Origin: a virus
Taxonomy: Duplodnaviria; Heunggongvirae; Uroviricota; Caudoviricetes
IMG/VR virus record: IMGVR_UViG_2671181056_000013
Location: 1 to 60,485 of that record
Length of the DNA: 60,485 nt
Reading direction: 5' to 3' (one strand)
Part shown: piece after piece, positions 5,301 to 57,917 of the stretch
Position numbering within the stretch: position 1 is the stretch's first letter
Layout: each line of letters begins with the position of its first letter
Position numbers and translations under genes: made by a program
The notes under the pieces: generated by a model
What the model saw: the letters and a program-made list of their open reading frames with translations, nothing else
What the model was told of the DNA's origin: nothing
The model's database searches: none

Positions 5301-5316
5301 TTGAGGGCAAAACGCT

Positions 5317-5706: not shown

Positions 5707-5718
5707 GAGAACTGATTA

Positions 5719-7001: not shown

Positions 7002-8837
7002 ATGACCCAAGTCGCGAAGAAAATTCTGGTGACGTGCGCGCTGCCGTACGCTAACGGCTCAATCCACCTCGGCCATATGCTGGAGCACATCCAGGCTGAT
7101 GTCTGGGTTCGTTACCAGCGAATGCGCGGCCACGAGGTTAATTTCATCTGTGCCGACGATGCCCACGGTACGCCAATCATGCTGAAAGCACAGCAGCTTG
7201 GTATCACACCGGAACAGATGATTGGCGAAATGAGTCAGGAACATCAGACTGATTTCGCAGGCTTTAACATCAGCTATGACAACTATCACTCGACGCACAG
7301 CGAAGAGAACCGTCAGTTGTCCGAGCTTATCTACTCTCGCCTGAAAGAAAACGGTTTTATTAAAAACCGCACCATCTCACAGCTGTACGATCCGGAAAAA
7401 TGCATGTTCCTGCCGGACCGTTTTGTAAAAGGCACCTGCCCGAAATGTAAATCCCCGGATCAATACGGCGATAACTGCGAAGTCTGCGGCGCGACCTACA
7501 GCCCGACTGAACTGATCGAGCCGAAATCGGTGGTTTCTGGCGCTACGCCGGTAATGCGTGATTCTGAACACTTCTTCTTTGATCTGCCCTCTTTCAGCGA
7601 AATGTTGCAGGCATGGACCCGCAGCGGTGCGTTGCAGGAGCAGGTGGCAAATAAAATGCAGGAGTGGTTTGAATCCGGCCTGCAACAGTGGGATATCTCC
7701 CGCGACGCGCCATACTTTGGTTTTGAAATTCCGAACGCGCCGGGCAAATATTTCTACGTCTGGCTGGACGCACCGATTGGCTACATGGGTTCTTTCAAGA
7801 ATCTGTGCGACAAGCGCAGCGACAGCGTAAGCTTCGATGAATACTGGAAGAAAGACTCCACCGCCGAGCTGTACCACTTCATCGGTAAAGATATTGTTTA
7901 CTTCCACAGCCTGTTCTGGCCTGCCATGCTGGAAGGCAGCAACTTCCGCAAGCCGACCAACCTGTTTGTTCATGGCTATGTGACGGTGAACGGCGCAAAG
8001 ATGTCCAAGTCTCGCGGCACCTTTATTAAAGCCAGCACCTGGCTGAATCATTTTGACGCTGACAGCCTGCGTTACTACTACACTGCGAAACTCTCTTCGC
8101 GCATTGATGATATCGATCTCAACCTGGAGGATTTCGTTCAGCGTGTGAATGCCGATATCGTGAACAAAGTGGTTAACCTGGCCTCTCGTAATGCGGGCTT
8201 TATCAACAAGCGTTTTGACGGCGTGCTGGCAAGCGAACTGGCTGACCCGCAGTTGTACAAAACCTTCACTGATGCCGCTGAAGTGATTGGTGAAGCGTGG
8301 GAAAGCCGCGAATTTGGTAAAGCAGTGCGCGAAATCATGGCGCTGGCTGATCTGGCTAACCGCTATGTCGACGAGCAGGCTCCGTGGGTGGTGGCAAAAC
8401 AGGAAGGCCGCGATGCCGACCTGCAGGCAATTTGCTCAATGGGCATAAACCTGTTCCGCGTGCTGATGACTTACCTGAAGCCGGTACTGCCGAAACTGAC
8501 CGAGCGCGCAGAAGCATTCCTCAATACAGAACTGACCTGGGATGGTATCCAGCAACCGCTGCTGGGCCACAAAGTGAATCCGTTCAAAGCGCTGTATAAC
8601 CGCATCGATATGAAGCAGGTTGAAGCACTGGTGGAAGCGTCTAAAGAAGAAGTGAAAGCAGCTGCCGCGCCAGTTACTGGCCCACTGGCAGATGATCCGA
8701 TTCAGGAAACCATCACCTTTGACGACTTCGCAAAAGTTGACCTGCGCGTGGCGCTGATCGAAAACGCAGAGTTTGTTGAAGGTTCTGACAAACTGCTGCG
8801 CCTGATGCGGTGTATGAAGAATAACCAGAATGGTTAA
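7002..8837 (+). CDS. metG: methionyl-tRNA synthetase copy B, truncated after about codon 601 and read through into 10 junction codons
   Basis: Near-identical to the other metG copies except scattered SNPs. Junction at 8805/8806 joins metG to sequence equal to 2524 onward. The ORF-track N-terminal extension (6873-6992) is treated as artefact. Confidence 0.8.
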
Positions 8838-8843
8838 TAGGCG

Positions 8844-9953
8844 TTAGACCGCGCGGAAGGAAATCTCGCCTGGAATGACTTCACCCTGCCAGTAGAGCTG
8901 AGCTGCAACGCGGTCAGCCAGCTGGCGGTAGATAGCGGTAAATTCGCTCTCCGGACGGCTGATAACCGTTGGCGTGCCTTTATCGAGATCCTCACGTAAG
9001 GAGATGTGTAACGGCATCTGCCCCAGCAGCTGTGTGTGGTATTTTTCAGCCAGTTTCTCTGCACCACCGGTACCGAAAATCGGTTCATGGTGACCACAGT
9101 TACTGCAAATATGCACACTCATGTTCTCGACAATACCAAGCACCGGAACCTCGACTTTCTCGAACATCACAATGCCTTTTTTCGCATCGATCAAAGCGAT
9201 GTCCTGCGGGGTGGTGACCACGACTGCACCAGTTACTGGAATGTTTTGCGCCAGCGTCAATTGAATGTCACCGGTGCCTGGCGGCATATCAAGCACCAGA
9301 TAGTCGAGATCCGGCCACAAGGTTTCCTGCAACATCTGCATTAACGCCTTGCTCGCCATCGGTCCACGCCACACCATCGCATTGTCGTCAGTGACCAGAT
9401 AACCAATTGAATTGGTTGCCAGGCCATGAGACATAATCGGTGCCATATGGGTACCGTCCGGCGAAGTTGGACGCTGATTTTCTGCGCCCAGCATGGTGGG
9501 AATTGATGGGCCGTAGATATCGGCGTCCAGAATGCCGACTTTCGCCCCTTCCGCCGCCAGTGCCAGCGCCAGGTTTACCGCCGTGGAGGATTTACCCACG
9601 CCGCCTTTACCGGAACTGACCGCAATGATGTTCTTCACACCATTAATACCCGGCTGATTCTTCACGCGTTTTAAGGTGGCGATATTGTGCGACAGTTTCC
9701 AGTCGATAGCTTTCGCCCCGGTGATACGCAGCAGTTCGGCGCTACATTGCTCTTTTAACTCTTCAAACGCGCTATGCCAGACGAATGGCATAACCAGTTC
9801 CACATGCAACGTGTCGTCCATCCAGGCGACATGGTGCAACGCGTTCAGCGTGGTGAGGTTATGCTTCAGGGTTGGGTGCTGAAAATTGGCCAGTGTCCCG
9901 GCGACCATTGCGCGCAAGGCTTCTGGTGATTTGGCCTGGGATTGTTCGTTCAT
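8844..9953 (-). CDS. mrp: Mrp/ApbC, copy 2 (identical to copy 1)
   Basis: Translation is identical to 2562-3701; the DNA repeat runs from 8806, offset 6282 from copy 1. Confidence 0.9.
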   Translation of the reverse strand: MNEQSQAKSPEALRAMVAGTLANFQHPTLKHNLTTLNALHHVAWMDDTLHVELVMPFVWHSAFEELKEQCSAELLRITGAKAIDWKLSHNIATLKRVKNQPGINGVKNIIAVSSGKGGVGKSSTAVNLALALAAEGAKVGILDADIYGPSIPTMLGAENQRPTSPDGTHMAPIMSHGLATNSIGYLVTDDNAMVWRGPMASKALMQMLQETLWPDLDYLVLDMPPGTGDIQLTLAQNIPVTGAVVVTTPQDIALIDAKKGIVMFEKVEVPVLGIVENMSVHICSNCGHHEPIFGTGGAEKLAEKYHTQLLGQMPLHISLREDLDKGTPTVISRPESEFTAIYRQLADRVAAQLYWQGEVIPGEISFRAV

Positions 9954-10084
9954 CCCGACTCCTTTTTTGTATAGATAAACCATCAGCTGATAGTTTACCT
10001 GAAGAATATAGAGAAGTACTTACTTAACATTTTCCCATTTGGTACTATCTAACCCCTTTTCACTATTAAGAAGTAATGCCTACT

Positions 10085-12118
10085 ATGACTCAAGTCGCGA
10101 AGAAAATTCTGGTGACGTGCGCACTGCCGTACGCTAACGGCTCAATCCACCTCGGCCATATGCTGGAGCACATCCAGGCTGATGTCTGGGTCCGTTACCA
10201 GCGAATGCGCGGCCACGAGGTCAACTTCATCTGCGCCGACGATGCCCACGGTACACCGATCATGCTGAAAGCTCAGCAGCTTGGTATCACCCCGGAGCAG
10301 ATGATTGGCGAAATGAGTCAGGAGCATCAGACTGATTTCGCAGGCTTTAACATCAGCTATGACAACTATCACTCGACGCACAGCGAAGAGAACCGCCAGT
10401 TGTCAGAACTTATCTACTCTCGCCTGAAAGAGAACGGTTTTATTAAAAACCGCACCATCTCTCAGCTGTACGATCCGGAAAAAGGCATGTTCCTGCCGGA
10501 CCGTTTTGTGAAAGGCACCTGCCCGAAATGTAAATCCCCGGATCAATACGGCGATAACTGCGAAGTCTGCGGCGCGACCTACAGCCCGACTGAATTGATC
10601 GAGCCGAAATCGGTGGTTTCTGGCGCTACGCCGGTAATGCGTGATTCTGAACACTTCTTCTTTGATCTGCCCTCTTTCAGCGAAATGTTGCAGGCATGGA
10701 CCCGCAGCGGTGCGTTGCAGGAGCAGGTGGCAAATAAAATGCAGGAGTGGTTTGAATCCGGCCTGCAACAGTGGGATATCTCCCGCGACGCGCCATACTT
10801 TGGTTTTGAAATTCCGAACGCGCCGGGCAAATATTTCTACGTCTGGCTGGACGCACCGATTGGCTACATGGGTTCTTTCAAGAATCTGTGCGACAAGCGC
10901 AGCGACAGCGTAAGCTTCGATGAATACTGGAAGAAAGACTCCACCGCCGAGCTGTACCACTTCATCGGTAAAGATATTGTTTACTTCCACAGCCTGTTCT
11001 GGCCTGCCATGCTGGAAGGCAGCAACTTCCGCAAGCCGACCAACCTGTTTGTTCATGGCTATGTGACGGTGAACGGCGCAAAGATGTCCAAGTCTCGCGG
11101 CACCTTTATTAAAGCCAGCACCTGGCTGAATCATTTTGACGCTGACAGCCTGCGTTACTACTACACTGCGAAACTCTCTTCGCGCATTGATGATATCGAT
11201 CTCAACCTGGAGGATTTCGTTCAGCGTGTGAATGCCGATATCGTGAACAAAGTGGTTAACCTGGCCTCTCGTAATGCGGGCTTTATCAACAAGCGTTTTG
11301 ACGGCGTGCTGACAAGCGAACTGGCTGACCCGCAACTGTACAAAACCTTTACTGATGCCGCTGAAGTGATTGGCGAAGCATGGGAAAGCCGCGAATTTGG
11401 TAAAGCTATCCGTGAAATCATGGCATTGGCTGACCTGGCTAATCGCTATGTCGATGAACAGGCTCCGTGGGTGGTGGCGAAGCAGGAAGGTCGCGATGCA
11501 GATCTGCAGGCGATTTGCTCTATGGGCATTAACCTGTTCCGCGTGCTGATGACGTACCTGAAACCGGTACTGCCGAAACTGACTGAACGTGCAGAAGCAT
11601 TCCTGAATACAGAACTGACCTGGGATGGTATCCAGCAACCGCTTCTGGGCCATAAAGTGAATCCGTTCAAGGCACTGTATAACCGTATCGATATGAAACA
11701 GGTGGAAGCACTGGTGGAAGCATCCAAAGAAGAAGTGAAAGCCACAGCTGCACCGGTAACTGGCCCACTGGCTGACGAACCGATTCAGGAAACCATCACC
11801 TTTGACGACTTCGCCAAAGTTGACCTGCGTGTGGCGCTGATTGAAAACGCGGAGTTTGTCGAAGGTTCTGACAAACTGCTTCGCCTGACGCTGGATCTCG
11901 GTGGTGAAAAGCGTAATGTCTTCTCAGGCATCCGTTCCGCTTATCCAGATCCACAGGCACTGATTGGTCGTCACACCATTATGGTGGCTAACCTGGCACC
12001 ACGTAAAATGCGCTTCGGTATCTCTGAAGGCATGGTGATGGCTGCCGGTCCTGGCGGGAAAGATATCTTCCTGTTAAGCCCGGATGCTGGTGCTAAACCT
12101 GGCCACCAGGTTAAGTAA
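10085..12118 (+). CDS. metG: methionyl-tRNA synthetase, full length (677 aa)
   Basis: Complete ORF including the C-terminal tRNA-binding domain. The 3' third differs at many sites from copies 1 and B. Confidence 0.9.
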
Positions 12119-12140
12119 TTAAACAACCTCTCTTCGCAAT

Positions 12141-12166
12141 GCCCGGCAACACGCCGGGCATTTTCA
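12141..12166 (+). terminator. intrinsic terminator of metG (GCCCGGC-AACAC-GCCGGGC plus T-run)
   Basis: 7-bp GC stem followed by ATTTTC, 23 nt after the metG stop. Confidence 0.7.
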
Positions 12167-12201
12167 TATAGACACAATCCCTCCTGATTTACACAAGCCC
12201 T

Positions 12202-12240
12202 AAAACAATTTGTTTTCTACCTTTTGTTGATTGAGATAAT
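12202..12240 (+). promoter_or_regulatory. about 40-bp phage promoter-like element, copy 2 of 3; apparent left edge of the phage region
   Basis: Same 23-mer as at 5183; sits between the metG terminator and the first phage-like gene. Confidence 0.4.
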
Positions 12241-12279
12241 AAGCCACATAAGAAAACAACTTGTTTTGGAGTAGTTGAA

Positions 12280-12579
12280 ATGTTGAACATTACCCAAGCC
12301 TACCAGGTGGCATTGATCAGTTCATCTCATACATCAGAGGAAGATGCTCGCCGATTCATGATCGCAAGCAATGAGCTGGATTGGGTTTCACAAATTGAGT
12401 ACGGTTGCATTGTCCACGCCGGGTTACAGGACGATGACTGGAAAGATGAGTTGCGTCGATATGGTATATCCGAGGGTGCGATTGCGAACATTCAGAAAGT
12501 ACTTGATGTAGGCTTTAACTCTGTACATTTTGATTGTGGCGCACCGGTCGTTGAAGGGCTTGAGTGCTGGCAATGGTAA
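12280..12579 (+). CDS. hypothetical early protein (99 aa)
   Basis: ORF with GGAG RBS, preceded by the GAAAACAAnTTGTTTTC palindrome. Confidence 0.55.
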   Translation: MLNITQAYQVALISSSHTSEEDARRFMIASNELDWVSQIEYGCIVHAGLQDDDWKDELRRYGISEGAIANIQKVLDVGFNSVHFDCGAPVVEGLECWQW

Positions 12580-12615
12580 TCCGGCAATCGCTTCATACTA
12601 GATAACGGAGAATTT

Positions 12616-12801
12616 ATGCTTAAAGAAGACTCATATCTACTAAAGGCGCTTGAAATGAGTGGCGTTGAACCTACAGTGAAAAACGCTCACGATATCTACC
12701 TTCAGTTTTCGACAGAGCTGAAACAGCTCATAAATAAATATGGAGTGAACGACTCCAGCGTCAAAGCCATGATAGATGATGAATTAGACCATCTCATCTA
12801 A
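12616..12801 (+). CDS. hypothetical small protein (61 aa)
   Basis: ORF with RBS-like GGAGAA upstream. Confidence 0.45.
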   Translation: MLKEDSYLLKALEMSGVEPTVKNAHDIYLQFSTELKQLINKYGVNDSSVKAMIDDELDHLI

Positions 12802-12899
12802 TCAAACCGTTGATAATGGCGGTCACAATTTGATTCTTTTCTATAAGAACCCGTTGATCGCCACTACTACCCTCCCATACCAGCAATCACATCATTAAA

Positions 12900-13700
12900 T
12901 ATCAATAGGTTATGGTTGTTTATACCAATAAGAAAACAACTAAATAACAGATCAACGAAACATCAACGCTTTCTCCCGATTTGGTCTAAAAAATTGACGT
13001 TATCACACATCACTTCTTATACCCGTAATTCTACGCAGCAGATAGCGCCACAGCGTCCAAATTTCACCACAGACGACTCAACACACTACCAACAAAAACA
13101 CACGCTCAAAATCGCTCCCGTTGCGTTACACAACCATATAAACAACTTATTTTCAGGCATAACAAAACAACCAAATAACACATATGCCATTACCCAAAAC
13201 AACCAACCTCTTTATGGCAGGCTACCGAAAAGACCCACCTCTTCTCCCCAGGCTACCGGACAACCAACCTAACTTTCACAGGCAATCCGAAAACATTCAT
13301 ACGCGCGATACCCACGACACGCCATTACCCAAACAGCGAAGAAACACCTGAACCGCTGAAACCCTAACGAAGCCTGTAACCGCAAGGTTTCTCTCAATCC
13401 CAAAAGACACGAAACATAACAATCACGGGAAACGCCATTACCCAATACACGAATAACTACAAAAGCCTTCACACACTCCAGACAAACAACTCAAACACAA
13501 TAACGAAAGCAATCGCCCACCTGCCATTACTCCATACACGGAGAAGAACAATCACCAAAACGACGAGAACACCCCCATAGAAGAACCACCGCAAAACTAA
13601 CGAAACCACATACACCGACAGAGAAAACAACACACCCAATTCACCAACAGAAATAGTCGCCGTATAGAACATTCTGGAAGGAGTGAGCATTAACGCCTAT
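12900..13700. repeat. G-poor, CA-rich non-coding tract with dispersed GCCATTACCCA and CAGGCTACCG...CCCACCT repeats
   Basis: Top strand is almost devoid of G for about 800 bp. Four GCCATTAC(C/T)C copies near 13186, 13321, 13433, 13523; two CAGGCTACCG copies at 13217-13273. The only ORF translates to low-complexity sequence. Confidence 0.6.
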
Positions 13701-13854
13701 AGAGAGGTTGAGACAGATAAAACACAACATGTATAGCGAAGAAGCCAGGTATGTATAAGTGGAGAGGGAAGGAGGGGGGTCGCCTCCTTTTTCGTATTTA
13801 TTCAACTCCTGATTTTATCCCCCGTAACACCCCCTACGGTCAGCCTTCGGTCCA

Positions 13855-13992
13855 TACAGGGAAAAGGTTGCATCCAGCTACAGAAACGGCTGGGTTGCCT
13901 TCGGGGGAACGGCTGGGGATTTTCAGGGAAACGGTCGAGTTGCCTGTGTGGATTTCGGGAAAAGGCTCGATGCCGGTTCTGGAACGGCGGCG
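13855..13992. repeat. iteron-like direct repeats (GGGAAAMGG family, about 6 copies at 21-32 bp spacing), set 1
   Basis: CAGGGAAAAGG, CAGAAACGGC, CGGGGGAACGGC, CAGGGAAACGG, TCGGGAAAAGGC, CTGGAACGGCGG in series; no convincing ORF. Confidence 0.55.
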
Positions 13993-14370
13993 TACCGGTA
14001 TAGCGAGAGAGAGAGTTGCAGCTACCCACCTGTAATGTGCGGGAAGAAGAGAGGCGCTCACGTGCAGGCTGACTTGCTTACCGCTGGATTCCCTCTGAAT
14101 GCCAGATACAGCGTAATTGTGCCAGACAGCCAGCGGGTCACAATCGATTTCAGTAGGTTTTCGGGGAGAGGATTATTCTACCCACCAGCCCCGCGGCGCG
14201 CGTAGAGCAGAATATCGTAAATACTGGCTCTCGTGTCGTTCCCGGATATTCACTGCCCAGCCTGGCTTTCCCGACATAAAATCCTTTTTCGCCTTTATCT
14301 TATTGCGATAATAACACCAACAAGTAAACAGCATATTTAGACGTTATAGAAACGAAGTGAGGATGAAGAG

Positions 14371-14589
14371 ATGATTAAGATGCCTGTGACGGTTGAGGTG
14401 TGGGGCGTGGATTCCCTGGCTGAGTGTCTGGATGCAGTGGGGCCGGAGTTGTACCGCAAGTTGTGGTCGTTCGTCCCGGCAGAAGGGGAATCGCCCAAAG
14501 GGAAGGATATCTGGCACCTGCTGAGTGAAGATGAAAAGCGGGAGCTGGTGGGCGCGGTACACAGCGAGTTCCCGGACGACCAAGATTAA
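14371..14589 (+). CDS. hypothetical acidic small protein (72 aa)
   Basis: ORF with GAGGA RBS, followed by a terminator. Confidence 0.5.
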   Translation: MIKMPVTVEVWGVDSLAECLDAVGPELYRKLWSFVPAEGESPKGKDIWHLLSEDEKRELVGAVHSEFPDDQD

Positions 14590-14595
14590 GAGTGA

Positions 14596-14618
14596 GGCCA
14601 CCAGCACGGTGGCTTTTG
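14596..14618 (+). terminator. intrinsic terminator (GCCACC-AGCAC-GGTGGC plus TTTT)
   Basis: Hairpin plus T-run immediately after the stop at 14589. Confidence 0.6.
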
Positions 14619-14727
14619 TCGCTATTAACCTCGGGGCAGCGCAGCACCGTAACGATATACTTTGTGGCCGTTTTCTTACTGGTATTGTTTACGTAATTCA
14701 GAAAACAACATGTTTAAGGATTGCTTT

Positions 14728-16683: not shown

Positions 16684-16732
16684 TTATTAAGGCCACCACT
16701 GCTGGTGGCCTTAAATGACCATCCTGTTTCCC

Positions 16733-16805
16733 GCAGGCTAAAAACACCAACCTCTTACCTCCAGGCAACCGACAAACCCACCTGTTCCCGTCCGGCTACC
16801 GCAAC
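16733..16805. repeat. second cluster of CAGGCTACCG...CCCACCT-family repeats
   Basis: GCAGGCTAAAAACACCAACCTC, CCAGGCAACCGACAAACCCACCTG and CCGGCTACCGCAAC resemble the repeats at 13217-13273. Confidence 0.45.
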
Positions 16806-19437: not shown

Positions 19438-19959
19438 TTAAAACGGAAGGATTCGTTCAACCCAATCGAAGAAAATAAGTATTTTTCTACCGTCTTCCAA
19501 CTTAAGTGTGACTAGACAGGCGTCAACGCCATCTGACGTTCCCTCAATTTCGCGACCGTCTGCCATGTAGACCCTTATAGATTTGCCGTTTTGGTAAGCC
19601 TGACGACATATCTTAAAAAAGTCACGACGTGATGGCTGATTAACCATCTGTTCATTGTTTAGCGTTAGTCGACCTGTGAATGAAGTGTCAACCTCTTCTA
19701 TGCCCGACTCAATTGTGCTAATGCGCTCAAGAGGGAGCCTTATACGATTTGTGTTGCTAAGCGGATCTGGTGTGAGGTTCAGCTTATTTCTTGCGCTCAA
19801 TAGCCCGTAGACATACATGCAAAACACTTGGCCGTCTTCGAGAGTGACTCTTACAGGAAATTTTGCACTCCGCCAGAAGAGCAAGGTACGTTCAGCATGT
19901 TCGTAGTCTCGCGGCCATACTTCAGCCGGTATGCCGTAGGTGATGTCCAATGTTCTCAT
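19438..19959 (-). CDS. hypothetical cytoplasmic protein (173 aa), translationally coupled to the upstream secreted protein
   Basis: ATGA overlap with the 19956-20549 ORF; a hairpin plus T-run terminator at 19396-19424 on the minus strand. Confidence 0.6.
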   Translation of the reverse strand: MRTLDITYGIPAEVWPRDYEHAERTLLFWRSAKFPVRVTLEDGQVFCMYVYGLLSARNKLNLTPDPLSNTNRIRLPLERISTIESGIEEVDTSFTGRLTLNNEQMVNQPSRRDFFKICRQAYQNGKSIRVYMADGREIEGTSDGVDACLVTLKLEDGRKILIFFDWVERILPF

Positions 19960-22635: not shown

Positions 22636-23334
22636 GTGGATTGTAGCAATAAAATGGACGTAAAAATCACGATTTTGCAGGTTGATGTTGCCAACCTTCG
22701 CCCGAATACCTGGAACACCAATTCGGTTGGTGCGCAGAATTTCGAAAAACTGAAAGGTTCTATCGAAAAATTGGGCTTTTTTAAGCCAATTTTGGCTCGT
22801 GAACTTGAAGATGGATTTTTTGAAATCCTCGGCGGCGAACATCGCTGGCGTGCCGCTATTGAGCAAGGAATTTCAACGGTTCCAGTGCTTTCTGTGGGCA
22901 AAATTAGCGATGTCGTAGCTAAACAGATGTCACTGGTGGACAACGAGCGATACGGTGAAGACGACCAAATCGCATTGCAACGCTTCATTGAAGAAATTCA
23001 GTCAGAACTTGACTATCAACTGTCTGAAATCGCCCCGTATGACGACGAAATCTCGATGGTTTTAGCAAAAGAGGCGGCAATCGACCTTGAAGCACTGGAG
23101 GCGTTGTCTCGTGGTAGTGATGAGCCTGTCGATACCGACAAACGAGAGAAAACCGAACGTGTGGGGGCGGAACATCAGACCATGCGCTTCAAAGTAACTT
23201 TCGATGCGTCAGATCGTGTTGCAGAAACCATAAAAAACATCATCAAAGAGCAGGCTATTAACACCGGTAATGAAATGGAGAACGCTGGTGAGGCTCTGGT
23301 GTGGCTGGTCGACTACTACAAGGAGCGTATGTAA
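22636..23334 (+). CDS. ParB/Srx-fold N-terminal-domain protein (ParB-like nuclease domain)
   Basis: GGEHRWRAA motif typical of the ParB N-terminal domain; the true start may be the ATG at 22654. Confidence 0.7.
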   Translation: MDCSNKMDVKITILQVDVANLRPNTWNTNSVGAQNFEKLKGSIEKLGFFKPILARELEDGFFEILGGEHRWRAAIEQGISTVPVLSVGKISDVVAKQMSLVDNERYGEDDQIALQRFIEEIQSELDYQLSEIAPYDDEISMVLAKEAAIDLEALEALSRGSDEPVDTDKREKTERVGAEHQTMRFKVTFDASDRVAETIKNIIKEQAINTGNEMENAGEALVWLVDYYKERM

Positions 23335-24002
23335 TGACCAAAAAGTTTGAAATCGTATATCGCGACCCGGCAGATCTTATTCCCTATGAGATGAATGCCA
23401 AAAAGCATGATGAACAGCAGATCAGAGATCTGGCCGCAGCCATTAAAAAGCGCGGATTTGACCAGCCAATTACGGTCGATAAGAACGACGTAATTATTAC
23501 TGGCCACGGCCGTCGTGAGGCTGCAATTTTTGCTGGACTTGAGCGTGTACCGGTTATTGTTCGCGATGATCTCAGTGATGACGAGGTTCGTGCGAAGCGC
23601 CTTGAAGATAACCGACTTGCCAGCATTGATTACGATGCAATTAAGCTACAGAAAGAGCTTGAGTCGCTTGTTCTGGACGATATCGAGGTTTTCGGCTTCG
23701 AAGAGCGTGAGTTGAATGTTCTCGTTGGCAGTATGACAGAAGAAATGGACACCGACTCGCTAGTTATCGATCTTGGCGAAGAAACTAAACGACAGAAGGA
23801 TGAACACACCGAGATCAGTCGTGAAGTTGCAGCGGAAGAAGTACGTGTTGTCGACGTATTGGGCTTTAAAACGCTTCCTGCTGGCTCTGCCATTGTTGTT
23901 GGTGATTTGCTTGCCCACATGGAAGAAATGACGGGAGAAAGCGGGGTAGACGCATTTGTGGCATATGCGGAGAAAATCTCTTCCGGGGAGATGGCTGCAT
24001 GA
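23334..24002 (+). CDS. second ParB-like N-terminal-domain protein
   Basis: ITGHGRREAA motif; start overlaps the previous stop (TAATG). Confidence 0.7.
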   Translation: MTKKFEIVYRDPADLIPYEMNAKKHDEQQIRDLAAAIKKRGFDQPITVDKNDVIITGHGRREAAIFAGLERVPVIVRDDLSDDEVRAKRLEDNRLASIDYDAIKLQKELESLVLDDIEVFGFEERELNVLVGSMTEEMDTDSLVIDLGEETKRQKDEHTEISREVAAEEVRVVDVLGFKTLPAGSAIVVGDLLAHMEEMTGESGVDAFVAYAEKISSGEMAA

Positions 24003-24637
24003 GCAAATACATCATCAACGTATCGTTTCAGACACGCGTAAATAAAACCACGCGCACGTTGGAAATCGCTGAGTCGTTCGGGCTTGGCCTGGACGAAAAA
24101 GAGTGGACGCTTTACGACAATCTGGAGCTGGAAGTGAAGCAGGGCGATGTGGTGTACATCACCGGCCAATCCGGTTCCGGCAAATCCGTTGTGCTGCGCG
24201 AGTTGCAACGACAGATGAAGGATGAAGGGCTGTCTGTAGCCTCCATCGATGATTTTACCTTCGATAATGAGGTTAACGTCATCGATCAGTTGGGCAAAAC
24301 GACCAGTGATGCGCTTGGGTTGTTATCTATGGCTGGTCTGAACGATGCATATCTGTTTGTTCGCAAGCCTTCTGAAATGTCAGACGGCCAGAAATATCGT
24401 CTCAAGATTGCCAAACTGATTGAGTCAGGCGCTAAAGTATGGGCTGCTGACGAGTTCGGCGCTGTTCTAGACCGTGTAACCGCTCAGGTTGTGGCGTCTA
24501 ACCTCCAGCGTGCCGCTCGAAAGGTTGGTGCGACGGTAATGGTGGCGACGACTCACGAAGACCTGAAGAACGCGCTGCGCCCGGATATGCAGATCACCAA
24601 GCACTACAAAGAACGCGTGAAGGTGGAATATGCCTGA
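23999..24637 (+). CDS. ABC-type ATPase (no transmembrane domain)
   Basis: Walker A GQSGSGKS, signature-like MSDGQKYRL, Walker B AADEFGA and H-loop TTHE. Confidence 0.7.
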   Translation: MSKYIINVSFQTRVNKTTRTLEIAESFGLGLDEKEWTLYDNLELEVKQGDVVYITGQSGSGKSVVLRELQRQMKDEGLSVASIDDFTFDNEVNVIDQLGKTTSDALGLLSMAGLNDAYLFVRKPSEMSDGQKYRLKIAKLIESGAKVWAADEFGAVLDRVTAQVVASNLQRAARKVGATVMVATTHEDLKNALRPDMQITKHYKERVKVEYA

Positions 24638-26080: not shown

Positions 26081-26135
26081 CCTGCTTCTGTATATATAAA
26101 TAATAAGTAACTTATTAAATATATACAGAAGCAGG
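26081..26135. repeat. 55-bp imperfect palindrome with 17-bp perfect arms (CCTGCTTCTGTATATAT ... ATATATACAGAAGCAGG), copy 1
   Basis: Read directly; outer arms GGTCTGGG / CCCAGACC extend the symmetry to about 100 bp. A second copy lies at 56965-57017. Confidence 0.7.
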
Positions 26136-53758: not shown

Positions 53759-54535
53759 ATGTCACCATCATTCATAGCAGAGTATTCAAAAGTACTGTCT
53801 GATTTCCCTGAATGTGAAGCAAGAGAGAAAATCAGAGTTGGCTACATGGTTAACTCTGATTTTTCTGTTTTACGGCTCACAGAGTGGTCCTTGATCGGGT
53901 CTAATTATGATTACTGTTTGACAGTGTCATTTGTAGGCGACCCTGATGCAGATTGGCTTCAAGAACATGCAATGGATCTTGACGAGCAGGGGCATTCAGA
54001 AGAAGAGATAGTTCATAGTGTTCGTGAATTAGTTGGTGATGAGCAAGAAGATGATGACGGCATTCAGATCGCCAGGTTCGTCTACAAACGATTCCAGTTT
54101 CGCTCACAAAAAGGCTCTCACCTTGGGGTCCAGATTAAAGGGGCATTTGTAACCCCTTCAAAGGAACAAAAGGGACTTGCTAGAAGAGTTTACAATTTTC
54201 TTCTCAATTGGCATGACCATGTAGTATGTGATGACCATCAGACGGTTTACGGTGCCAGAATTTGGGCTGTAGGTATGCTTTTGGTCGGTCGTGTCCAAAT
54301 CTATGACAATTTAAATAAAGAATTTATAGATGTCCTTGTTGAAGGTGGTATTGGGCAGAATGGCGTCAAACCGTGGGATGCGCTGCTATTGAACAGCGAG
54401 GCTCAGTTACGTCACTGGAACCCTATGGCTGTCAGCATAGACCCATCTAGTCAGATTCTCACCATCATCTCCAAAGAAGACCGCCACATTGAAGTGGGCG
54501 TTACAACATTTGATGCCAGGTCTACCAACCACTAA
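53759..54535 (+). CDS. hypothetical protein (258 aa), second gene of the cassette
   Basis: Start immediately follows the upstream stop; terminator 9 nt after its own stop. Confidence 0.6.
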   Translation: MSPSFIAEYSKVLSDFPECEAREKIRVGYMVNSDFSVLRLTEWSLIGSNYDYCLTVSFVGDPDADWLQEHAMDLDEQGHSEEEIVHSVRELVGDEQEDDDGIQIARFVYKRFQFRSQKGSHLGVQIKGAFVTPSKEQKGLARRVYNFLLNWHDHVVCDDHQTVYGARIWAVGMLLVGRVQIYDNLNKEFIDVLVEGGIGQNGVKPWDALLLNSEAQLRHWNPMAVSIDPSSQILTIISKEDRHIEVGVTTFDARSTNH

Positions 54536-54543
54536 TTCCTAAA

Positions 54544-54565
54544 CCCGCTACGGCGGGTTTTTTGT
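54544..54565 (+). terminator. intrinsic terminator (CCCGC-TACG-GCGGG plus T6)
   Basis: Hairpin plus TTTTTT. Confidence 0.7.
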
Positions 54566-54697
54566 TATTAAGTCCTTACCAAATCTATGTACCTATCATT
54601 AAACCTTTACACAGCAGCCGTAGGCATTTAGGCTATATCACATATAAGAAAACAAGTTGTTTCAGACAATAATAATAGACGCAAAGGAAACTCTCCA

Positions 54698-55366
54698 ATG
54701 ACCAAGATCTTTGTGGTTGGCGGCACAAAGGGCGGGCCTGGCAAATCCACCGTTGCCCAGCAAATTGCCGTTTGCCTGAAAGTCAAAAAGAAGAAGAAGG
54801 TTTATATTACCGATATAGATATTCAGCGCACGACAACGAGCTGGTGTGAAGACCGTCGACAGAACGAAGACCTTGAGCTGATTCCTTTTGCATACGTTCA
54901 GGATGACATCATTAAGCACCTAAAATCGCTTCAGGGTAGAGCTGAGTTTGTAGTGGTAGATGCTGGTGGCTTCGACTCCGAAATTCAGCGACAAGCGATG
55001 CTGATGGCTGACGTTATCATTATCCCGCTGCGTCCTAAGCGTCGTGATTTGAAATCTTTACGTGACATCGATCCTATTATCGACAATGTTCGCAATGTAA
55101 ACGATAAAGTGAAGGTCCGCGCGGTCATGAACCAGTGCCCGGCTTTGCCATCACAAGTGTCTCGCATTCTGGCGGCTAAAGAGATTGTTGAGACGTTTGG
55201 CATCGAGTCTGCGCCAGTCAATCTATATAACCGCAACGTCTATGATGATGCGGAAGAGTCTGGTCGTTCTATCTTTGAAATGACCGGTAGCGAGCGCGAC
55301 AAAAAGGCGGAAGCCGAGTTTGAAGAATTTGTAGATTATCTGTTGAGTCTGGAGGAAGAAGAATAA
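54698..55366 (+). CDS. ParA/MinD-family partition ATPase
   Basis: Deviant Walker A GGTKGGPGKST; 222 aa, typical small ParA size. Confidence 0.8.
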   Translation: MTKIFVVGGTKGGPGKSTVAQQIAVCLKVKKKKKVYITDIDIQRTTTSWCEDRRQNEDLELIPFAYVQDDIIKHLKSLQGRAEFVVVDAGGFDSEIQRQAMLMADVIIIPLRPKRRDLKSLRDIDPIIDNVRNVNDKVKVRAVMNQCPALPSQVSRILAAKEIVETFGIESAPVNLYNRNVYDDAEESGRSIFEMTGSERDKKAEAEFEEFVDYLLSLEEEE

Positions 55367-55725
55367 TGTCCATGAAAATGGGTGACCTAGCAAAGCGCAA
55401 AGAGTCTGATGCACCGGCTAAGAACACAACTCCTTTGCGCCAACCAGTCAGACCACAGGGACGCCCGACTCGTGGCAAAGAGAAAATTAAAAGCCGCACA
55501 ATGTCACTGGAGGACGAATACTTCGAACTGCTGGAGATGATGAAGTTCATCCCTCGCTTCGAGAAATTCACCCGCTCTGATGTGATTCGTGCTGCTATTT
55601 TCCATCTGGCAGAGAAGTCACCGCAGGAAATCGAGGACATCGTGAAGCTTAACGAGGCGATCACTGCTGCCGATGTCACGATGCGTACCGATGAAATTAA
55701 ACGCGAGTTAATGAAGAAAGGTTGA
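55366..55725 (+). CDS. putative partition partner protein (ParG/ParB-like adaptor)
   Basis: Overlapping start with parA-like (ATAATG); basic N-terminus. Call rests on position. Confidence 0.5.
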   Translation: MSMKMGDLAKRKESDAPAKNTTPLRQPVRPQGRPTRGKEKIKSRTMSLEDEYFELLEMMKFIPRFEKFTRSDVIRAAIFHLAEKSPQEIEDIVKLNEAITAADVTMRTDEIKRELMKKG

Positions 55726-55734
55726 TATAAATCT

Positions 55735-55764
55735 CTAAGGCTGGTCTGCATTGGACAGCCTTAG
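55735..55764. terminator. hairpin between convergent genes (CTAAGGCTG...CAGCCTTAG)
   Basis: 9-bp stem with 12-nt loop; the flanking A/T runs are weak. Confidence 0.45.
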
Positions 55765-55785
55765 AAATATTTCGTTCTATGAAAG

Positions 55786-56859
55786 CTATTCGTAGTTAAG
55801 CTCACCGAACAGACTGAACATCAAGTCACCATCCAAAATTTCAAAGGGCAACTCAACATACTCATCCTTATGTCTCGGAATTGCATTGCCGTCGTTAGGG
55901 GCATTCTTGGTATAACCTTTTACATGTTTACCGTTTTCTTTTGTATACGGCAGCACGACAATTCGACCGTGATTTTTTGAAATGATAGTTCCTTCTTTCC
56001 AGAGCGTATTGCCTCTTGAGGTGGTTTCGCTTTCGCTAGCAACTTTAACACTCCAACCTACCTGATTTTTGTCCTCAAACCAGAAAACAAAGTTGCCAAC
56101 AACCAGTACCTTTTGCCCATTCCTGAGAGCTTCATCCAGCATTCTTTTTACGCTGGCGAGTTGCAGTAACCGGTTAGCACGCGGCAGAAGCATTGAGCGA
56201 ATAGTCGCTTTTGTTTTTCCCCAATGTGCAGCACCTGATAAACCAAAACCTCTGGCTATGCGTTCTTGGTAGCAGATCTTCGCTGTCTTAGCTTTGTTGT
56301 TATATGAACATTCCCAAGTGTTAGGAGCAACGAGTTGAAGTGAAACTTGGAATTTGGGAAGAAAAACAAAATGTAAGTAAGGCATCTCGCTTAGCACGTC
56401 AAAAAGGGGTTGACGCAAAGTTTCGTAATCTGGGTTAATTATTAACTCATTTAATGTCACTCGCGGATCGTTGGCGTGTGCCTTAATTGCTTCGTTGAGC
56501 ATTATATACTCTTCATCCATGAGACGTGATTTGGCTTTGAGTGCTTTGTCAACTTTCAAACGCAATGACTTCTTTTGAAACATAGATAGAGGAAGTTTTT
56601 CAATGTCAAAGCTCACGTTTTTATTCAGCTCTAATGCCGCTTTTCTTGCTTCAGGATAGTTATCGTAGTCGTCATCAACAGCGTGGTTTGGCATACCACG
56701 ATCAACATATCGCCGATACCAAGCAAGGGTTCCATCATTACGGAGTTTCAGACAGAACATCGACCATTTATTCCGTTCATATTTAGGCTGAGGCCAAAAA
56801 GCCAGTTCGGGAAGGCCATATCCTGGAAGTCTATTCATGCGCATGGTGACAATATCCAC
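55786..56859 (-). CDS. hypothetical protein (357 aa), lone minus-strand gene in a plus-strand region
   Basis: Long ORF with its own upstream region containing palindrome copy 2. Confidence 0.65.
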   Translation of the reverse strand: MDIVTMRMNRLPGYGLPELAFWPQPKYERNKWSMFCLKLRNDGTLAWYRRYVDRGMPNHAVDDDYDNYPEARKAALELNKNVSFDIEKLPLSMFQKKSLRLKVDKALKAKSRLMDEEYIMLNEAIKAHANDPRVTLNELIINPDYETLRQPLFDVLSEMPYLHFVFLPKFQVSLQLVAPNTWECSYNNKAKTAKICYQERIARGFGLSGAAHWGKTKATIRSMLLPRANRLLQLASVKRMLDEALRNGQKVLVVGNFVFWFEDKNQVGWSVKVASESETTSRGNTLWKEGTIISKNHGRIVVLPYTKENGKHVKGYTKNAPNDGNAIPRHKDEYVELPFEILDGDLMFSLFGELNYE

Positions 56860-56964: not shown

Positions 56965-57017
56965 CCTGTTTCTGTATATAAATAATAAGTAACTTATTAA
57001 ATATATACGGAAGCAGG
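56965..57017. repeat. 55-bp imperfect palindrome, copy 2 (two substitutions relative to copy 1)
   Basis: CCTGTTTCTGTATATAT...ATATATACGGAAGCAGG; both substitutions keep pairing as G-U in plus-strand RNA. Confidence 0.7.
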
Positions 57018-57124: not shown

Positions 57125-57874
57125 GTGAGCCACATGAGCCAAATCTTTTTCGATACCATCGACAACGACCAGTACGACTTCATGACAGAGTGGAATACCG
57201 CTGTTATGGACAAGTGGGTCGCTGAAAACATTGGTTTGTCGCGCTGTAAAGACGAGGCTGAACTCTTCGAGACGAAGTGGTTTGATTACCGAGACATGCA
57301 TCCTCTTATGGCCACCTGTCTGTTTACGGAGGCATACAAACGTCAGTACTCAAATATCATGCTGACGCACGGTCGCGAACACTTTGAAACAGCTCCGTTC
57401 ACCACCGGGTTAAAACGCCTGCCTTATCAGGAGTTGTCGACTGCCAATAAAACGTCTCTATGGAAAGCACGCCAGTTTGCTGACCGCTATTGCTGCTCAT
57501 ACGACTACTTTATCTCCACCGTTCTTTCCGCAGCTGCACGACGGCTGTGGGACAAGCTGCCGCGCCCACAGCATTTGTGGCAGCCAGAGCTGGTTGAGAT
57601 ATTCGAAGAGAAATTAGCCAGACGCGCAACAACCCGTCTGGATGACTCTCTTGTTAGCTTTAAGCATATGGGAGACATGCAGTTCAACCCGATTCAGGAA
57701 AGCTATTTTGAGTGGATTCTGGAGTGTTTGCGCACCATCCCTCGCAGCAAGCGCATACGCGCAATTTTCTCCGCTATCTGGCTAATGGAAATCGTTCCAG
57801 AGCGCCTTATTTCCGCCCACTTTCCAGAAGAACTGGAAGAAGCACGGCGGTTTATTGATCCCCTATCTAATTAA
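57125..57874 (+). CDS. hypothetical protein (249 aa), possibly replication-associated
   Basis: Lies immediately upstream of the DnaB-like helicase. Confidence 0.55.
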   Translation: MSHMSQIFFDTIDNDQYDFMTEWNTAVMDKWVAENIGLSRCKDEAELFETKWFDYRDMHPLMATCLFTEAYKRQYSNIMLTHGREHFETAPFTTGLKRLPYQELSTANKTSLWKARQFADRYCCSYDYFISTVLSAAARRLWDKLPRPQHLWQPELVEIFEEKLARRATTRLDDSLVSFKHMGDMQFNPIQESYFEWILECLRTIPRSKRIRAIFSAIWLMEIVPERLISAHFPEELEEARRFIDPLSN

Positions 57875-57917
57875 CTAATACTAGAAAACAATTTGTTTAA
57901 AAAACAAAGGAAAGCAC

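What the first reader, a model, noticed from the sequence alone, without database searches (positions are those of the whole stretch)
54698..55725. ParA-type partition system inside a phage genome
A deviant-Walker-A ParA ATPase and an overlapping small partner gene lie next to the replication genes. Partition systems in phages are characteristic of elements maintained as plasmids during lysogeny; with the iteron arrays and lack of an integrase this suggests a phage-plasmid lifestyle, which conflicts with the apparent chromosomal context of the window.
Basis: partly seen in the sequence, partly recalled or inferred. Interest (0 to 1): 0.6.

Follow-up and report, generated by a model that had tools for sequence, protein, structure and literature searches.

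The report
Partition cassette of SSU5-type phage-plasmid
The two genes are the known but untested ParA-type plasmid-partition cassette of an SSU5/pHCM2-family phage-plasmid of Shigella sonnei, so the phage-plasmid reading is right and ordinary, except that in this window the element is joined to chromosomal DNA through a metG/apbC copy it carries.

Summary
Window 54698-55366 encodes a 222-aa ParA/ParF-like ATPase with a deviant Walker A motif. Window 55366-55725 encodes a 119-aa partner whose start overlaps the parA stop by 1 nt.

The region is 100% identical to four ~108-kb circular S. sonnei plasmids of the SSU5/pHCM2 phage-plasmid family. The cassette occurs in 264 of 5,426 complete E. coli genomes, always on plasmids. 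In the relative Cyrano it is transcribed during lysogeny. So the phage-plasmid interpretation is correct and already known.

New details:
- The cassette is a self-contained mosaic unit, about 54591-55728.
- Its ~75-bp upstream block is 93-96% conserved, against 77-84% for parA.
- There is no repeat array next to the pair. The only repeat-like element is one palindrome, AGAAAACAAGTTGTTT.
- That palindrome belongs to a plasmid-wide family of 18 promoter-associated copies.
- The partner belongs to a tiny orphan family. A ribbon-helix-helix (RHH) fold is suspected but not shown. Cyrano's "RelE/ParE toxin" label for it has no support here.

"No integrase" holds only inside the window. The chromosomal context is real: yehBCD, then three chromosomal, plasmid or hybrid apbC-metG copies, then plasmid DNA. 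This means either integration by homologous recombination or an assembly chimera.

The parts
54541..54560 (+). Intrinsic terminator hairpin plus T-run that ends the upstream gene (53759-54535). It insulates the par cassette from upstream transcription.
   Evidence: Terminator scan, 8-bp stem with 5 GC pairs. Conserved in the window, SSU5 and the Klebsiella plasmid, absent in pJN2-26.
54591..54666 (+). Ultra-conserved upstream block. It is the probable par promoter/operator and the best candidate for the cis-acting centromere-like site of the cassette.
   Evidence: 93-96% identical to SSU5, a Klebsiella plasmid and phage pJN2-26. The sub-block 54616-54655 is 97-100% identical. parA coding DNA is 77-84%. 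Homology of most E. coli copies starts exactly at 54591 or 54602. It holds candidate sigma-70 hexamers TAGGCA-16-TATAAG and TTTACA-17-TAGGCT, read by eye and not called by the scan. It also holds the short direct repeats ACCTAT/ACCTTT and TAGGCATT/TAGGCTAT, read from the sequence.
54647..54662 (+). 16-nt motif AGAAAACAAGTTGTTT (13-bp palindrome at 54650-54662), 35 nt before the parA ATG. It is a probable operator. It is one member of a plasmid-wide promoter-associated family.
   Evidence: AAACAANTTGTTT with at most 1 mismatch occurs 13 times in the window against 0.40 expected, with 0 of 100 shuffles reaching 13. It occurs 18 times in the full plasmid. It is invariant in the 4-way alignment. 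A one-mismatch version sits before parA and an exact copy before the DnaB-like gene in a distant relative (L013) whose partner is only 31% identical.
54698..55366 (+). parA: a 222-aa ParF-like (type Ib-like) deviant Walker A partition ATPase.
   Evidence: It has no N-terminal extension or HTH domain; it aligns to ParF residues 8-189 of 206.
55366..55725 (+). The 119-aa partner, translationally coupled to parA. It is the presumed centromere-binding/adaptor protein. Residues 1-47 are disordered and basic, with a conserved MGDLAK tip and an RPQGRPTRGK patch. An RHH-like segment KSRTMSLEDEYFELL...FTRSDVIRAAI follows, then two more helices.
   Evidence: coupling. (tiny orphan family). (conserved core). 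(AF2: disordered 1-47; helices 48-59, 70-82, 86-97, 101-118; pLDDT 67). (31%-identical homologues again sit directly after a 221-229-aa ParA-like gene). (residues ~24-119 almost invariant across elements whose parA differs by 16-23%).
55731..55768 (.). Inverted repeat (13-nt arms, 12-nt loop) between the partner stop and the convergent gene 55786-56859(-). It is a probable bidirectional terminator and lies just outside the cassette boundary.
   Evidence: I10, 92% complementary. Cassette homology to SSU5 and pJN2-26 ends at about 55728.
57883..57898 (+). A second copy of the same 16-nt motif (AGAAAACAATTTGTTT), 19 nt before the DnaB-like helicase ATG. It is shown as an example of the regulon to which the parA promoter belongs.

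Best explanation
The pair is the plasmid-partition cassette of an SSU5/pHCM2-type phage-plasmid, of the S. sonnei type that a 2025 preprint calls pWPMR2-like.

The proposed mechanism follows the small-ParA (type Ib, ParF/ParG-like) paradigm. The 119-aa partner is made from the same transcript by translational coupling. It binds as an oligomer to the conserved 75-bp block just upstream of parA, including the AGAAAACAAGTTGTTT palindrome at the transcription start region. There it both autoregulates the operon and forms the partition complex. Its flexible basic N-terminal tail contacts ATP-bound, nucleoid-associated ParA dimers and stimulates their ATPase. This moves the ~108-kb, low-copy prophage plasmids apart before division.

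Shown here:
- the ATPase family;
- the coupling and the conserved pairing of the two genes;
- the cassette boundaries;
- the strong conservation of the upstream block;
- exclusive plasmid location in E. coli;
- transcription in a lysogen of a close relative.

Inferred:
- DNA binding by the partner and its RHH fold;
- which bases form the centromere;
- ATPase stimulation;
- the stabilising effect itself.
For: ATPase family:
- ParF (4dzz) is the best solved relative, aligned over the full length at E 1.2e-10.
- ParA_partition scores 1.9e-33 and PHROG 164 scores 4e-51.
- The deviant Walker A KGGPGKST is read from the translation.

Operon structure:
- TAATG overlap plus a GGAGG ribosome-binding site.
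- The pairing is kept in relatives whose partner is only 31% identical.

Replicon:
- 100% identity to four circular S. sonnei plasmids. 721 plasmid records match, 687 of them non-mobilizable.
- 265 of 265 E. coli copies are on plasmids.
- It is the only ParA-type partition ATPase gene I recognised in the annotation of the whole plasmid. The other small AAA gene I scanned there is AAA_28 kinase-like.

Mosaic unit:
- Homology to SSU5 and pJN2-26 is limited to about 54540/54591-55728, with different genes on both sides.

Cis site:
- The upstream block is 93-96% identical (97-100% in its core), against 77-84% for parA.

Expression in a lysogen (Cyrano in E. coli LF82, about 97% identical cassette):
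- ParA about 50 fpkm, partner about 89, next gene about 55.
- Helicase about 21, primase about 11, CYRAN_31 about 6.
- The putative repressor gives about 96.
- Plasmid copy number is 5.5. Virions are made after ciprofloxacin (PMC9928086 main text, Table 1 and S1 Table).
Against: - No array of direct repeats (the usual type Ib centromere) lies beside the pair. The only clear repeat-like element is a single palindrome, and it is not specific to the par locus.
- The partner has no Pfam, PDB-sequence or fold match. The only hints of an RHH are a sub-threshold aCcr1 hit (E 2e-4, 21 bits against a cutoff of 60) and a 'faint' RHH_8 hit on a 22%-identical relative.
- ParA scores below the NCBIfam equivalog cutoff (115.7 against 180 bits).
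- I found no experimental test of partition for this cassette in the searched literature.
- In this window the element is contiguous with chromosomal DNA. If that is real, partition would be dispensable in this strain.
Confidence: 0.8

Rival explanations
1. Omega-like variant. The partner is not a locus-specific centromere binder but the global regulator of the element. It would bind the 16-nt AGAAAACAANTTGTTT sites found at 13 or more promoters (18 copies per plasmid). These dispersed operators together would serve as the partition sites that ParA acts on, as omega does at several promoters on pSM19035.
For: - The motif is 30-fold over-represented. It lies 11-14 nt after a -10-like box and 15-35 nt before the start codons of parA, the DnaB-like gene, cobT, nrdB, a TerB-like gene and the terminase operon, among others.
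- parA's own promoter carries it, so autoregulation would be satisfied.
- The half-sites are 7 bp apart, like omega heptads (my reading).
- The partner's putative DNA-reading strand (I[KR]SRTxS) is the most conserved part of the family. The motif is likewise kept in the most distant relative.
- Partner residues 24-119 are almost invariant while ParA drifts, as expected for a protein with many targets.
- In the Cyrano lysogen the partner is transcribed at about the level of the putative repressor.
Against: - pMT1 of Y. pestis has no copy of ParA or the partner (tblastn) yet keeps 6 motif copies at homologous promoters. pMT1 is a recent defective derivative, so this is weak evidence.
- Other candidate binders exist: the HTH 'putative repressor' next to the recombinase, and a FljA-like repressor at 19438-19959.
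- The same motif precedes late genes (terminase) that must be silent and parA that must be on. This argues against one simple repressor.
- DNA binding by the partner is unproven.
Confidence: 0.25
2. The ATPase is not a partition protein. It would be a ParA/MinD-family positioning or regulatory ATPase used in the lytic cycle (replication-factory or packaging placement), or a MipZ-like modulator of host division, as some RefSeq records name it.
For: - The best Pfam hit is MipZ, and some RefSeq records say 'division plane positioning ATPase MipZ'.
- The gene lies between the lysis module and phage-type replisome genes.
- Its promoter carries the same motif as lytic-cycle promoters.
- No classical centromere array is present.
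Against: - The MipZ match covers only residues 4-132, whereas ParF aligns over the full length.
- The gene is transcribed in lysogens above neighbouring replication genes.
- It is the only ParA-type partition ATPase gene I recognised on a 108-kb replicon with about 5 copies, which needs active segregation.
- It is a self-contained cassette that swaps between backbones, as par modules do.
Confidence: 0.08
3. The small gene is a RelE/ParE-type toxin, as annotated for CYRAN_29 in phage Cyrano, so the pair is not a ParA/adaptor operon.
For: Only the database label in OV696614 and in Table 1 of PMC9928086.
Against: - No RelE/ParE or any other Pfam family matched any of 15 family members, even at E<=10.
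- There was no PDB sequence match.
- The architecture is a disordered basic tail plus a helical acidic domain. From general knowledge, this is unlike the compact alpha/beta RelE fold.
- The gene is always coupled to a ParA gene, and no antitoxin-sized gene lies between or after them.
Confidence: 0.02

Closest known systems
ParF-ParG-parH of Salmonella plasmid TP228 (type Ib partition)
   Same: - Small ParA without an N-terminal DNA-binding domain. ParF is the best solved homologue (E 1.2e-10, full length).
- A small downstream partner with a disordered basic N-terminal tail and a short C-terminal folded domain.
- The likely cis site lies upstream of parA and overlaps the promoter.
   Different: - The partner shows no detectable sequence or fold similarity to ParG.
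- The partner is longer (119 against 76 aa) and has two extra C-terminal helices.
- There is no array of short boxes like parH. Instead there is a 75-bp invariant block with a single 13-bp palindrome.
- The system rides on a phage-plasmid, not a conjugative plasmid.
Delta-omega system of pSM19035 (small ParA plus an RHH global regulator)
   Same: A small ParA plus a small partner. The putative site of the partner is also found at several other promoters of the replicon. The half-sites have 7-bp spacing.
   Different: The motif sequence is unrelated, and there is a single inverted pair per site instead of heptad arrays. There is no evidence that the partner binds these sites. There are 18 copies spread over 108 kb.
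P1 ParA-ParB-parS, and the related pMT1 par (type Ia), the classical phage-plasmid partition systems
   Same: Same biological role: segregation of a low-copy plasmid prophage. pMT1 belongs to the same SSU5 supergroup (PMC7969092).
   Different: Type Ia ParA is about 400 aa with an HTH domain, ParB is about 320 aa, and parS lies downstream (general knowledge, plus for the pMT1 gene sizes). pMT1 has no homologue of the present pair.
SSU5_033/034 (phage SSU5), CYRAN_28/29 (phage Cyrano) and the corresponding genes of pHCM2-type plasmids
   Same: Direct orthologues, 85-98% nucleotide identity, in the same order with the same upstream block.
   Different: Nothing essential differs. The flanking genes differ because the cassette is mosaic. 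The partner is annotated 'hypothetical' or, in Cyrano, 'RelE/ParE putative toxin'.

Membership tests
ParA/MinD superfamily, small (type Ib, ParF-like) partition ATPases | Deviant Walker A motif KGGxxK[ST] with the signature N-terminal lysine | tested here: met
   K11-G-G-P-G-K16-S-T in the translation. It aligns with the ParF P-loop.
ParA/MinD superfamily, small (type Ib, ParF-like) partition ATPases | About 200-230 aa, with no N-terminal HTH/regulatory domain | tested here: met
   222 aa. Residues 9-199 align with ParF 8-189 of 206.
ParA/MinD superfamily, small (type Ib, ParF-like) partition ATPases | Significant whole-protein match to a curated partition-ParA model | tested here: inconclusive
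   NF041546 ParA_partition gives E 1.9e-33 but 115.7 bits, below the 180-bit equivalog cutoff. PHROG 164 'ParA-like partition protein' gives 4e-51.
Type Ib partition operon | A small adaptor gene immediately downstream in the same operon, with the pairing conserved in relatives | tested here: met
   1-nt overlap TAATG. The same pairing is seen at 31% partner identity and in SSU5, pJN2-26, the Klebsiella plasmid and Cyrano.
Type Ib partition operon | The adaptor is a ribbon-helix-helix DNA-binding dimer | tested here: inconclusive
Type Ib partition operon | A centromere made of iterated repeats next to the operon | tested here: not met
   No tandem or direct-repeat family lies within or beside 54536-55790. 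There is only an invariant 75-bp block with one palindrome.
Type Ib partition operon | Stabilises a low-copy replicon; the partner stimulates ParA ATPase | not testable with these tools
   This needs a plasmid-loss assay and biochemistry. I found no publication on it.
SSU5/pHCM2 phage-plasmid group | About 100-115-kb element with SSU5-type siphovirus structural genes plus plasmid replication and partition genes, found as a circular plasmid | tested here: met
   Window 10569-60455 is 99.96% identical to pMHMC-002 positions 1-49889. That record carries terminase, portal, capsid, tape-measure and tail genes, and a Rep_3 initiator. SSU5 and Cyrano themselves match. The family is described in PMC7969092.
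SSU5/pHCM2 phage-plasmid group | Extrachromosomal state in this particular genome | tested here: not met
   The window joins phage-plasmid DNA to chromosomal yehBCD-apbC-metG through hybrid metG genes. Reads are needed to tell integration from misassembly.
RelE/ParE toxins (the label given to the partner in Cyrano) | Match to RelE/ParE family models | tested here: not met
   No such Pfam hit for any of 15 family members at E<=10. None in the PDB.

The most novel reading that the evidence does not exclude
The 119-aa partner is an omega-like master regulator. It would bind the 16-nt AGAAAACAANTTGTTT sites at 13 or more promoters (18 copies) of the phage-plasmid. One small protein would then both set the transcription of replication, nucleotide-metabolism and virion operons and turn these dispersed operators into a distributed centromere for ParA. 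That would couple plasmid segregation to the lysis-lysogeny state in a family carried by about 18% of UK S. sonnei and 17% of S. Typhi isolates.
Probability: 0.2. Interest if true: 0.7.

Novelty: already known. Interest (0 to 1): 0.27.

Why it matters
SSU5/pHCM2-type phage-plasmids are common in clinically important lineages. They are reported in 18% of S. sonnei and 17% of S. Typhi isolates scanned in the UK, and some carry CTX-M genes (bioRxiv 10.1101/2025.09.12.675607). Their stable inheritance presumably depends on this cassette. Yet its adaptor protein is an unannotated orphan, its centromere is undefined, and I found no functional test.

Defining the cassette boundaries, the invariant upstream block and the plasmid-wide promoter motif gives concrete targets for curing, incompatibility and regulation experiments.

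As a discovery the finding itself is ordinary. The gene has been annotated as ParA since the SSU5 genome record, and the family is a standard example of phage-plasmids.

The possibly interesting extra is the chromosomal junction. If real, it shows an integrase-independent route by which a phage-plasmid enters the chromosome: homologous recombination through housekeeping-gene paralogues (metG/apbC) that it carries.

Tried and rejected
- Centromere repeats next to the pair. The repeat finder (seed 7) and TRF (score >=30) found nothing beyond chance-level two-copy matches.
- hhalign against CopG, ParG, omega, Arc and Mnt. Nothing was significant.
- Family expansion. 25 hits in 5.8 billion proteins and 19 representatives in 1.8 billion. 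All informative ones come from SSU5-like contexts.
- A natural 'knock-out' to test whether the palindromes depend on the partner. pMT1 lacks the pair but keeps 6 motif copies. I judged this uninformative because pMT1 is a recent defective derivative. Among 12 enterobacterial SSU5-like phage records, 11 carry the cassette, and the twelfth is an 84-kb record that I suspect is partial.
- A second ParA on the plasmid. The 214-aa 'AAA family ATPase' is AAA_28/kinase-like. The 'septum site-determining protein' in Cyrano's expression table is probably the apbC/Mrp cargo; I inferred this and did not check it.
- The two ParB_N-domain genes at 22636-24002, considered as possible partners. I rejected them. 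They lie 31 kb away in the terminase-proximal block and are retained in pMT1, which uses a different par system.
- Rfam scan of the whole window: no RNA family.
- tRNA scan: none.
- The junctions J1 and J2 in 5,426 E. coli complete genomes: none spans them.
- Literature on SSU5 integration at metG: none found.
Full report
**1. What is at the coordinates**

The ORF listing gives two same-strand ORFs exactly as described. One is 54698-55366 (222 aa) and the other is 55366-55725 (119 aa).

The first protein starts MTKIFVVGGTKGGPGKST. This is the deviant Walker A motif KGGxxK[ST] with both lysines (K11, K16).
- It matches Pfam MipZ, AAA_31 and CbiA.
- It matches NCBIfam ParA_partition at 1.9e-33, but at 115.7 bits it is under that model's 180-bit cutoff.
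- It matches PHROG 164 'ParA-like partition protein' at 4e-51.
- Its best solved relative is ParF of TP228, aligned from residue 9 to 199 (E 1.2e-10). It is therefore a small, type Ib-like ParA with no N-terminal DNA-binding domain.

The parA stop codon and the partner start codon share one base (TAATG). A GGAGG lies 10 nt upstream of the partner ATG, so the two genes are translationally coupled.

**2. What the window is**

The 4.6 kb around the pair is 100% identical to four circular 107-109-kb Shigella sonnei plasmids. It matches 721 plasmid records, of which 687 are predicted non-mobilizable. It also matches phage SSU5, phage Cyrano and Klebsiella SSU5-like phages.

Window 10569-60455 is 99.96% identical to positions 1-49889 of pMHMC-002. 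The annotation of that record shows terminase, portal, capsid, tape-measure, tail, lysis, helicase and primase genes.

This is the SSU5/pHCM2 group of phage-plasmids, a standard example of the class (PMC7969092). A 2025 preprint reports a conserved S. sonnei clade (pWPMR2-like) in 18% of the UK S. sonnei isolates it scanned (bioRxiv 10.1101/2025.09.12.675607).

In SSU5 the gene is annotated 'putative ParA family protein' (SSU5_033). In Cyrano it is 'ParA plasmid partitioning protein' (CYRAN_28).

**3. Evidence that it acts in the plasmid state**

- In 5,426 complete E. coli genomes the cassette occurs 265 times in 264 genomes. Every copy is on a plasmid and none is on a chromosome.
- In the annotation of the whole plasmid it is the only ParA-type partition ATPase gene I recognised. 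The other small AAA gene I scanned there is kinase-like.
- For Cyrano, whose cassette is about 97% identical, published data give a plasmid copy number of 5.5 and virion production induced by ciprofloxacin.
- RNA-seq of the Cyrano lysogen gives ParA about 50 fpkm, the partner about 89 and the next gene about 55. The adjacent CYRAN_31 gives about 6, the helicase about 21 and the primase about 11. The putative repressor gives about 96 (PMC9928086 text, Table 1 and S1 Table).

Expression in lysogeny at about the level of the repressor fits a maintenance function. It does not fit a purely lytic one.

**4. The cassette and its cis region**

Homology to SSU5 and pJN2-26 is confined to about 54540-55728, and the genes on both sides differ. 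Most E. coli copies begin to match at exactly 54591 or 54602 and stop matching at 55723-55728. The unit that moves between backbones is therefore about 107 bp of upstream DNA plus parA plus the partner.

Conservation against three diverged relatives:

| Segment | Identity |
|---|---|
| Upstream block 54591-54666 | 93-96% |
| Core of the block, 54616-54655 | 97-100% |
| parA coding sequence | 77-84% |
| Partner coding sequence | 84-88% |

The partner protein is almost invariant from about residue 24 onward across these elements.

The upstream block contains plausible sigma-70 hexamers, which I read by eye. The simple scan did not call them. It also contains two short direct-repeat pairs (ACCTAT/ACCTTT and TAGGCATT/TAGGCTAT) and the palindrome AGAAAACAAGTTGTTT, which ends 35 nt before the ATG.

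No tandem or multi-copy repeat array lies next to the pair. The invariant block is the best candidate for a combined operator and centromere.

**5. The palindrome is not specific to par**

AAACAANTTGTTT with at most one mismatch occurs 13 times in the window, against 0.40 expected. None of 100 shuffles reached 13. It occurs 18 times in the full plasmid.

Thirteen of the 18 copies share one orientation and one architecture. A -10-like box (TTAnTTA, TATTAT, GATAAT) comes first. AGAAAACAANTTGTTT follows 11-14 nt later. A ribosome-binding site and ATG follow 15-35 nt after that.

The genes served include parA, the DnaB-like helicase, cobT, nrdB, a TerB-like gene, several small genes at 12-17 kb, and the terminase operon, which has two copies.

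A distant SSU5-like contig (L013) has a partner only 31% identical and a parA leader that is otherwise unrelated. It still has a one-mismatch version of the motif before parA and an exact copy before its DnaB-like gene.

The parA promoter therefore belongs to an element-wide regulon. Who binds the motif is open. Candidates are:
- the partner itself, which would be an omega-like arrangement;
- the HTH 'putative repressor' next to the recombinase;
- the FljA-like protein at 19438-19959 (Pfam Flag1_repress, 1e-68).

pMT1 lacks the pair but keeps six copies of the motif. Because pMT1 is a recent defective derivative, I give this little weight.

**6. The partner**

It belongs to a very small family. 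There are 25 hits among 5.8 billion proteins and 19 representatives among 1.8 billion. It matches PHROG 5111, of unknown function.

Family alignments show four parts:
- a conserved N-terminal tip, MGDLAK;
- a variable linker;
- a conserved basic patch, RPQGRPTRGK;
- the most conserved stretch, I[KR]SRTxS[LIM]E[DE]E[YF]..[LF]...[FS][TS]RSDV.RAA...L.

That last stretch reads like a ribbon-helix-helix strand, helix A and the N-cap of helix B.

AlphaFold (monomer, 15-sequence alignment, pLDDT 67) gives a disordered region 1-47 and helices 48-59, 70-82, 86-97 and 101-118. Support for an RHH is weak:
- an aCcr1 hit at E 2e-4, 21 bits against a cutoff of 60;
- a 'faint' RHH_8 hit on a 22%-identical relative;

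I therefore call the RHH fold an inference.

What is shown is the genetic linkage. Homologues at 31% identity again sit directly after a 221-229-aa ParA-like gene in SSU5-like contexts. The 'RelE/ParE putative toxin' label in Cyrano has no support from any search here.

**7. Mechanism proposed**

The model follows the type Ib paradigm. The partner binds the upstream block. It represses its own promoter and forms the partition complex. Its basic disordered tail stimulates nucleoid-bound ParA-ATP, which drives the low-copy plasmids apart.

Shown here: the family of the ATPase, the coupling of the two genes, the conserved pairing, the cassette boundaries, the constraint on the cis block, the plasmid-only distribution, and expression in a lysogen.

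Inferred: DNA binding by the partner, the identity of the centromere, ATPase stimulation, and stabilisation itself.

**8. The chromosomal context**

Window 36-1794 encodes the N-terminal part of a yehB-type usher, the chaperone YehC and the fimbrial protein YehD. E. coli chromosomes match the whole of 1-12119 in the order yehB-yehC-yehD-yehE-apbC-metG. Phage-plasmid records match only from about 2566 onward.

SSU5-type plasmids carry their own apbC-metG pair. It is about 83% (apbC) and 95-96% (metG) identical to the chromosomal pair.

The window holds three apbC-metG copies.

| Copy | Window position | Type | How it ends |
|---|---|---|---|
| 1 | 2524-5172 | Purely chromosomal | Stops at metG nt ~1358. 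Joined with at most 2 nt of microhomology (J1, 5172/5173) to plasmid position 107126, which carries the S24 peptidase gene and the plasmid apbC. |
| 2 | metG 6873-8805 | Plasmid-type to nt ~510, chromosomal-type from nt ~674 | Stops at nt ~1796. Joined (J2, 8805/8806) to a second copy of the chromosomal apbC segment. |
| 3 | metG 10076-12118 | Chromosomal-type to nt ~1193, plasmid-type afterwards | Runs on into the plasmid body. |

Two metG hybrids of opposite polarity are what a crossover between chromosome and phage-plasmid would leave. The 6,282-bp B-C duplication and the two non-homologous joints need extra events, or an assembly error. No complete E. coli genome contains J1 or J2, and I found no paper on this. 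I put genuine integration at roughly even odds. Only the reads can decide.

If integration is real, the par cassette is a passenger in this strain. The route of entry would then be independent of the integrase.

**9. The integrase**

There is none in the window. The complete plasmid has a tyrosine recombinase (Phage_integrase, 1e-9) next to the putative repressor, about 7.3 kb past the window's right end.

In Cyrano it is transcribed in lysogens at the level of ParA. That would fit a role in resolving plasmid multimers, as in P1. This is an inference.

**10. Verdict**

The finding is a real, correctly interpreted and already known feature. It is the ParA cassette of an SSU5-type phage-plasmid, 100% identical to published S. 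sonnei plasmids.

The open points are modest:
- the adaptor protein is an orphan;
- the centromere is undefined;
- the parA promoter shares a motif with an element-wide regulon;
- in this window the element is joined to the chromosome through its metG/apbC cargo.

Noticed in passing
window 1-12118 (junctions at 5172/5173 and 8805/8806): The left end is true chromosome (yehB', yehC, yehD, then apbC-metG). The phage-plasmid is joined to it through three apbC-metG copies. Copy 1 is purely chromosomal-type and truncated. Copy 2 is a plasmid-5'/chromosome-3' hybrid metG, also truncated. Copy 3 is a chromosome-5'/plasmid-3' hybrid metG that runs into the plasmid body. There is also a 6,282-bp duplication with two non-homologous joints. 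This is either integration by homologous recombination through the plasmid's housekeeping-gene cargo or an assembly chimera. No complete E. coli genome has these joints.
   Followed up: partly
window 1885, 5182, 12203, 12254, 13140, 14703, 15188, 16090, 16855, 26175, 26200, 54650, 57886 (13-nt cores): A 16-nt motif, AGAAAACAANTTGTTT, is 30-fold over-represented. There are 13 copies in the window and 18 in the full plasmid. It mostly lies 11-14 nt after a -10-like box and 15-35 nt before operon start codons, so it marks an element-wide promoter/operator regulon. The binding protein is unknown. The motif is also present in pMT1 and in a distant SSU5-like contig.
   Followed up: partly
window 19438-19959 (-): This 173-aa gene is a full-length match to Pfam Flag1_repress, the FljA repressor of phase-1 flagellin (E 1.4e-68). 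It lies in a minus-strand cluster of the phage-plasmid. Its pMT1 homologue is annotated 'transcriptional regulator'. It could affect host motility, or it could be the regulator that acts at the 5'-leader motif.
   Followed up: no
window 26112-26135 and 56965-57017: A 24-nt element, TTATTAAATATATAC(G/A)GAAGCAGG, occurs twice (0 expected). One copy lies about 60 bp upstream of the double palindrome before the terminase operon. The other is one arm of a 26-nt near-perfect inverted repeat between the divergent genes 55786-56859(-) and 57125-57874(+). A related sequence is present in pMT1 and in contig L013. It is a possible second regulator site or origin-like element.
   Followed up: no
window 12100-14650 and 16700-16770: This gene-poor stretch holds several repeat families. 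Periodic units of about 31 nt (CCAAAACAACCAACCTC...CAGGCTA) lie at 13194-13285 and 16710-16768. GCCATTACCCAA boxes lie in and around repeats starting at 12288, 13174, 13316, 13422 and 13511. The Rep_3 initiator is not nearby; it lies about 31 kb from parA, outside the window.
   Followed up: no
window 22636-24637: Two adjacent ParB_N-domain genes (22636-23334 and 23301-24002) are followed by an ABC-ATPase-like gene, just upstream of the terminase block. They are also kept in pMT1. They are probably not partition proteins.
   Followed up: partly
window 55366-55725; Cyrano CYRAN_29 in L010 3776-4135: The orthologue of the partner is annotated 'RelE/ParE putative toxin' in phage Cyrano and listed as a moron in PMC9928086. 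No search here supports a toxin family. This is probably a mis-annotation.
   Followed up: yes
window 5317-5706: A 129-aa S24 peptidase (UmuD/HumD-like) gene has no DNA-binding domain. It sits next to the plasmid apbC, and a reverse-oriented copy of the 16-nt motif and a hairpin lie just upstream of it.
   Followed up: no
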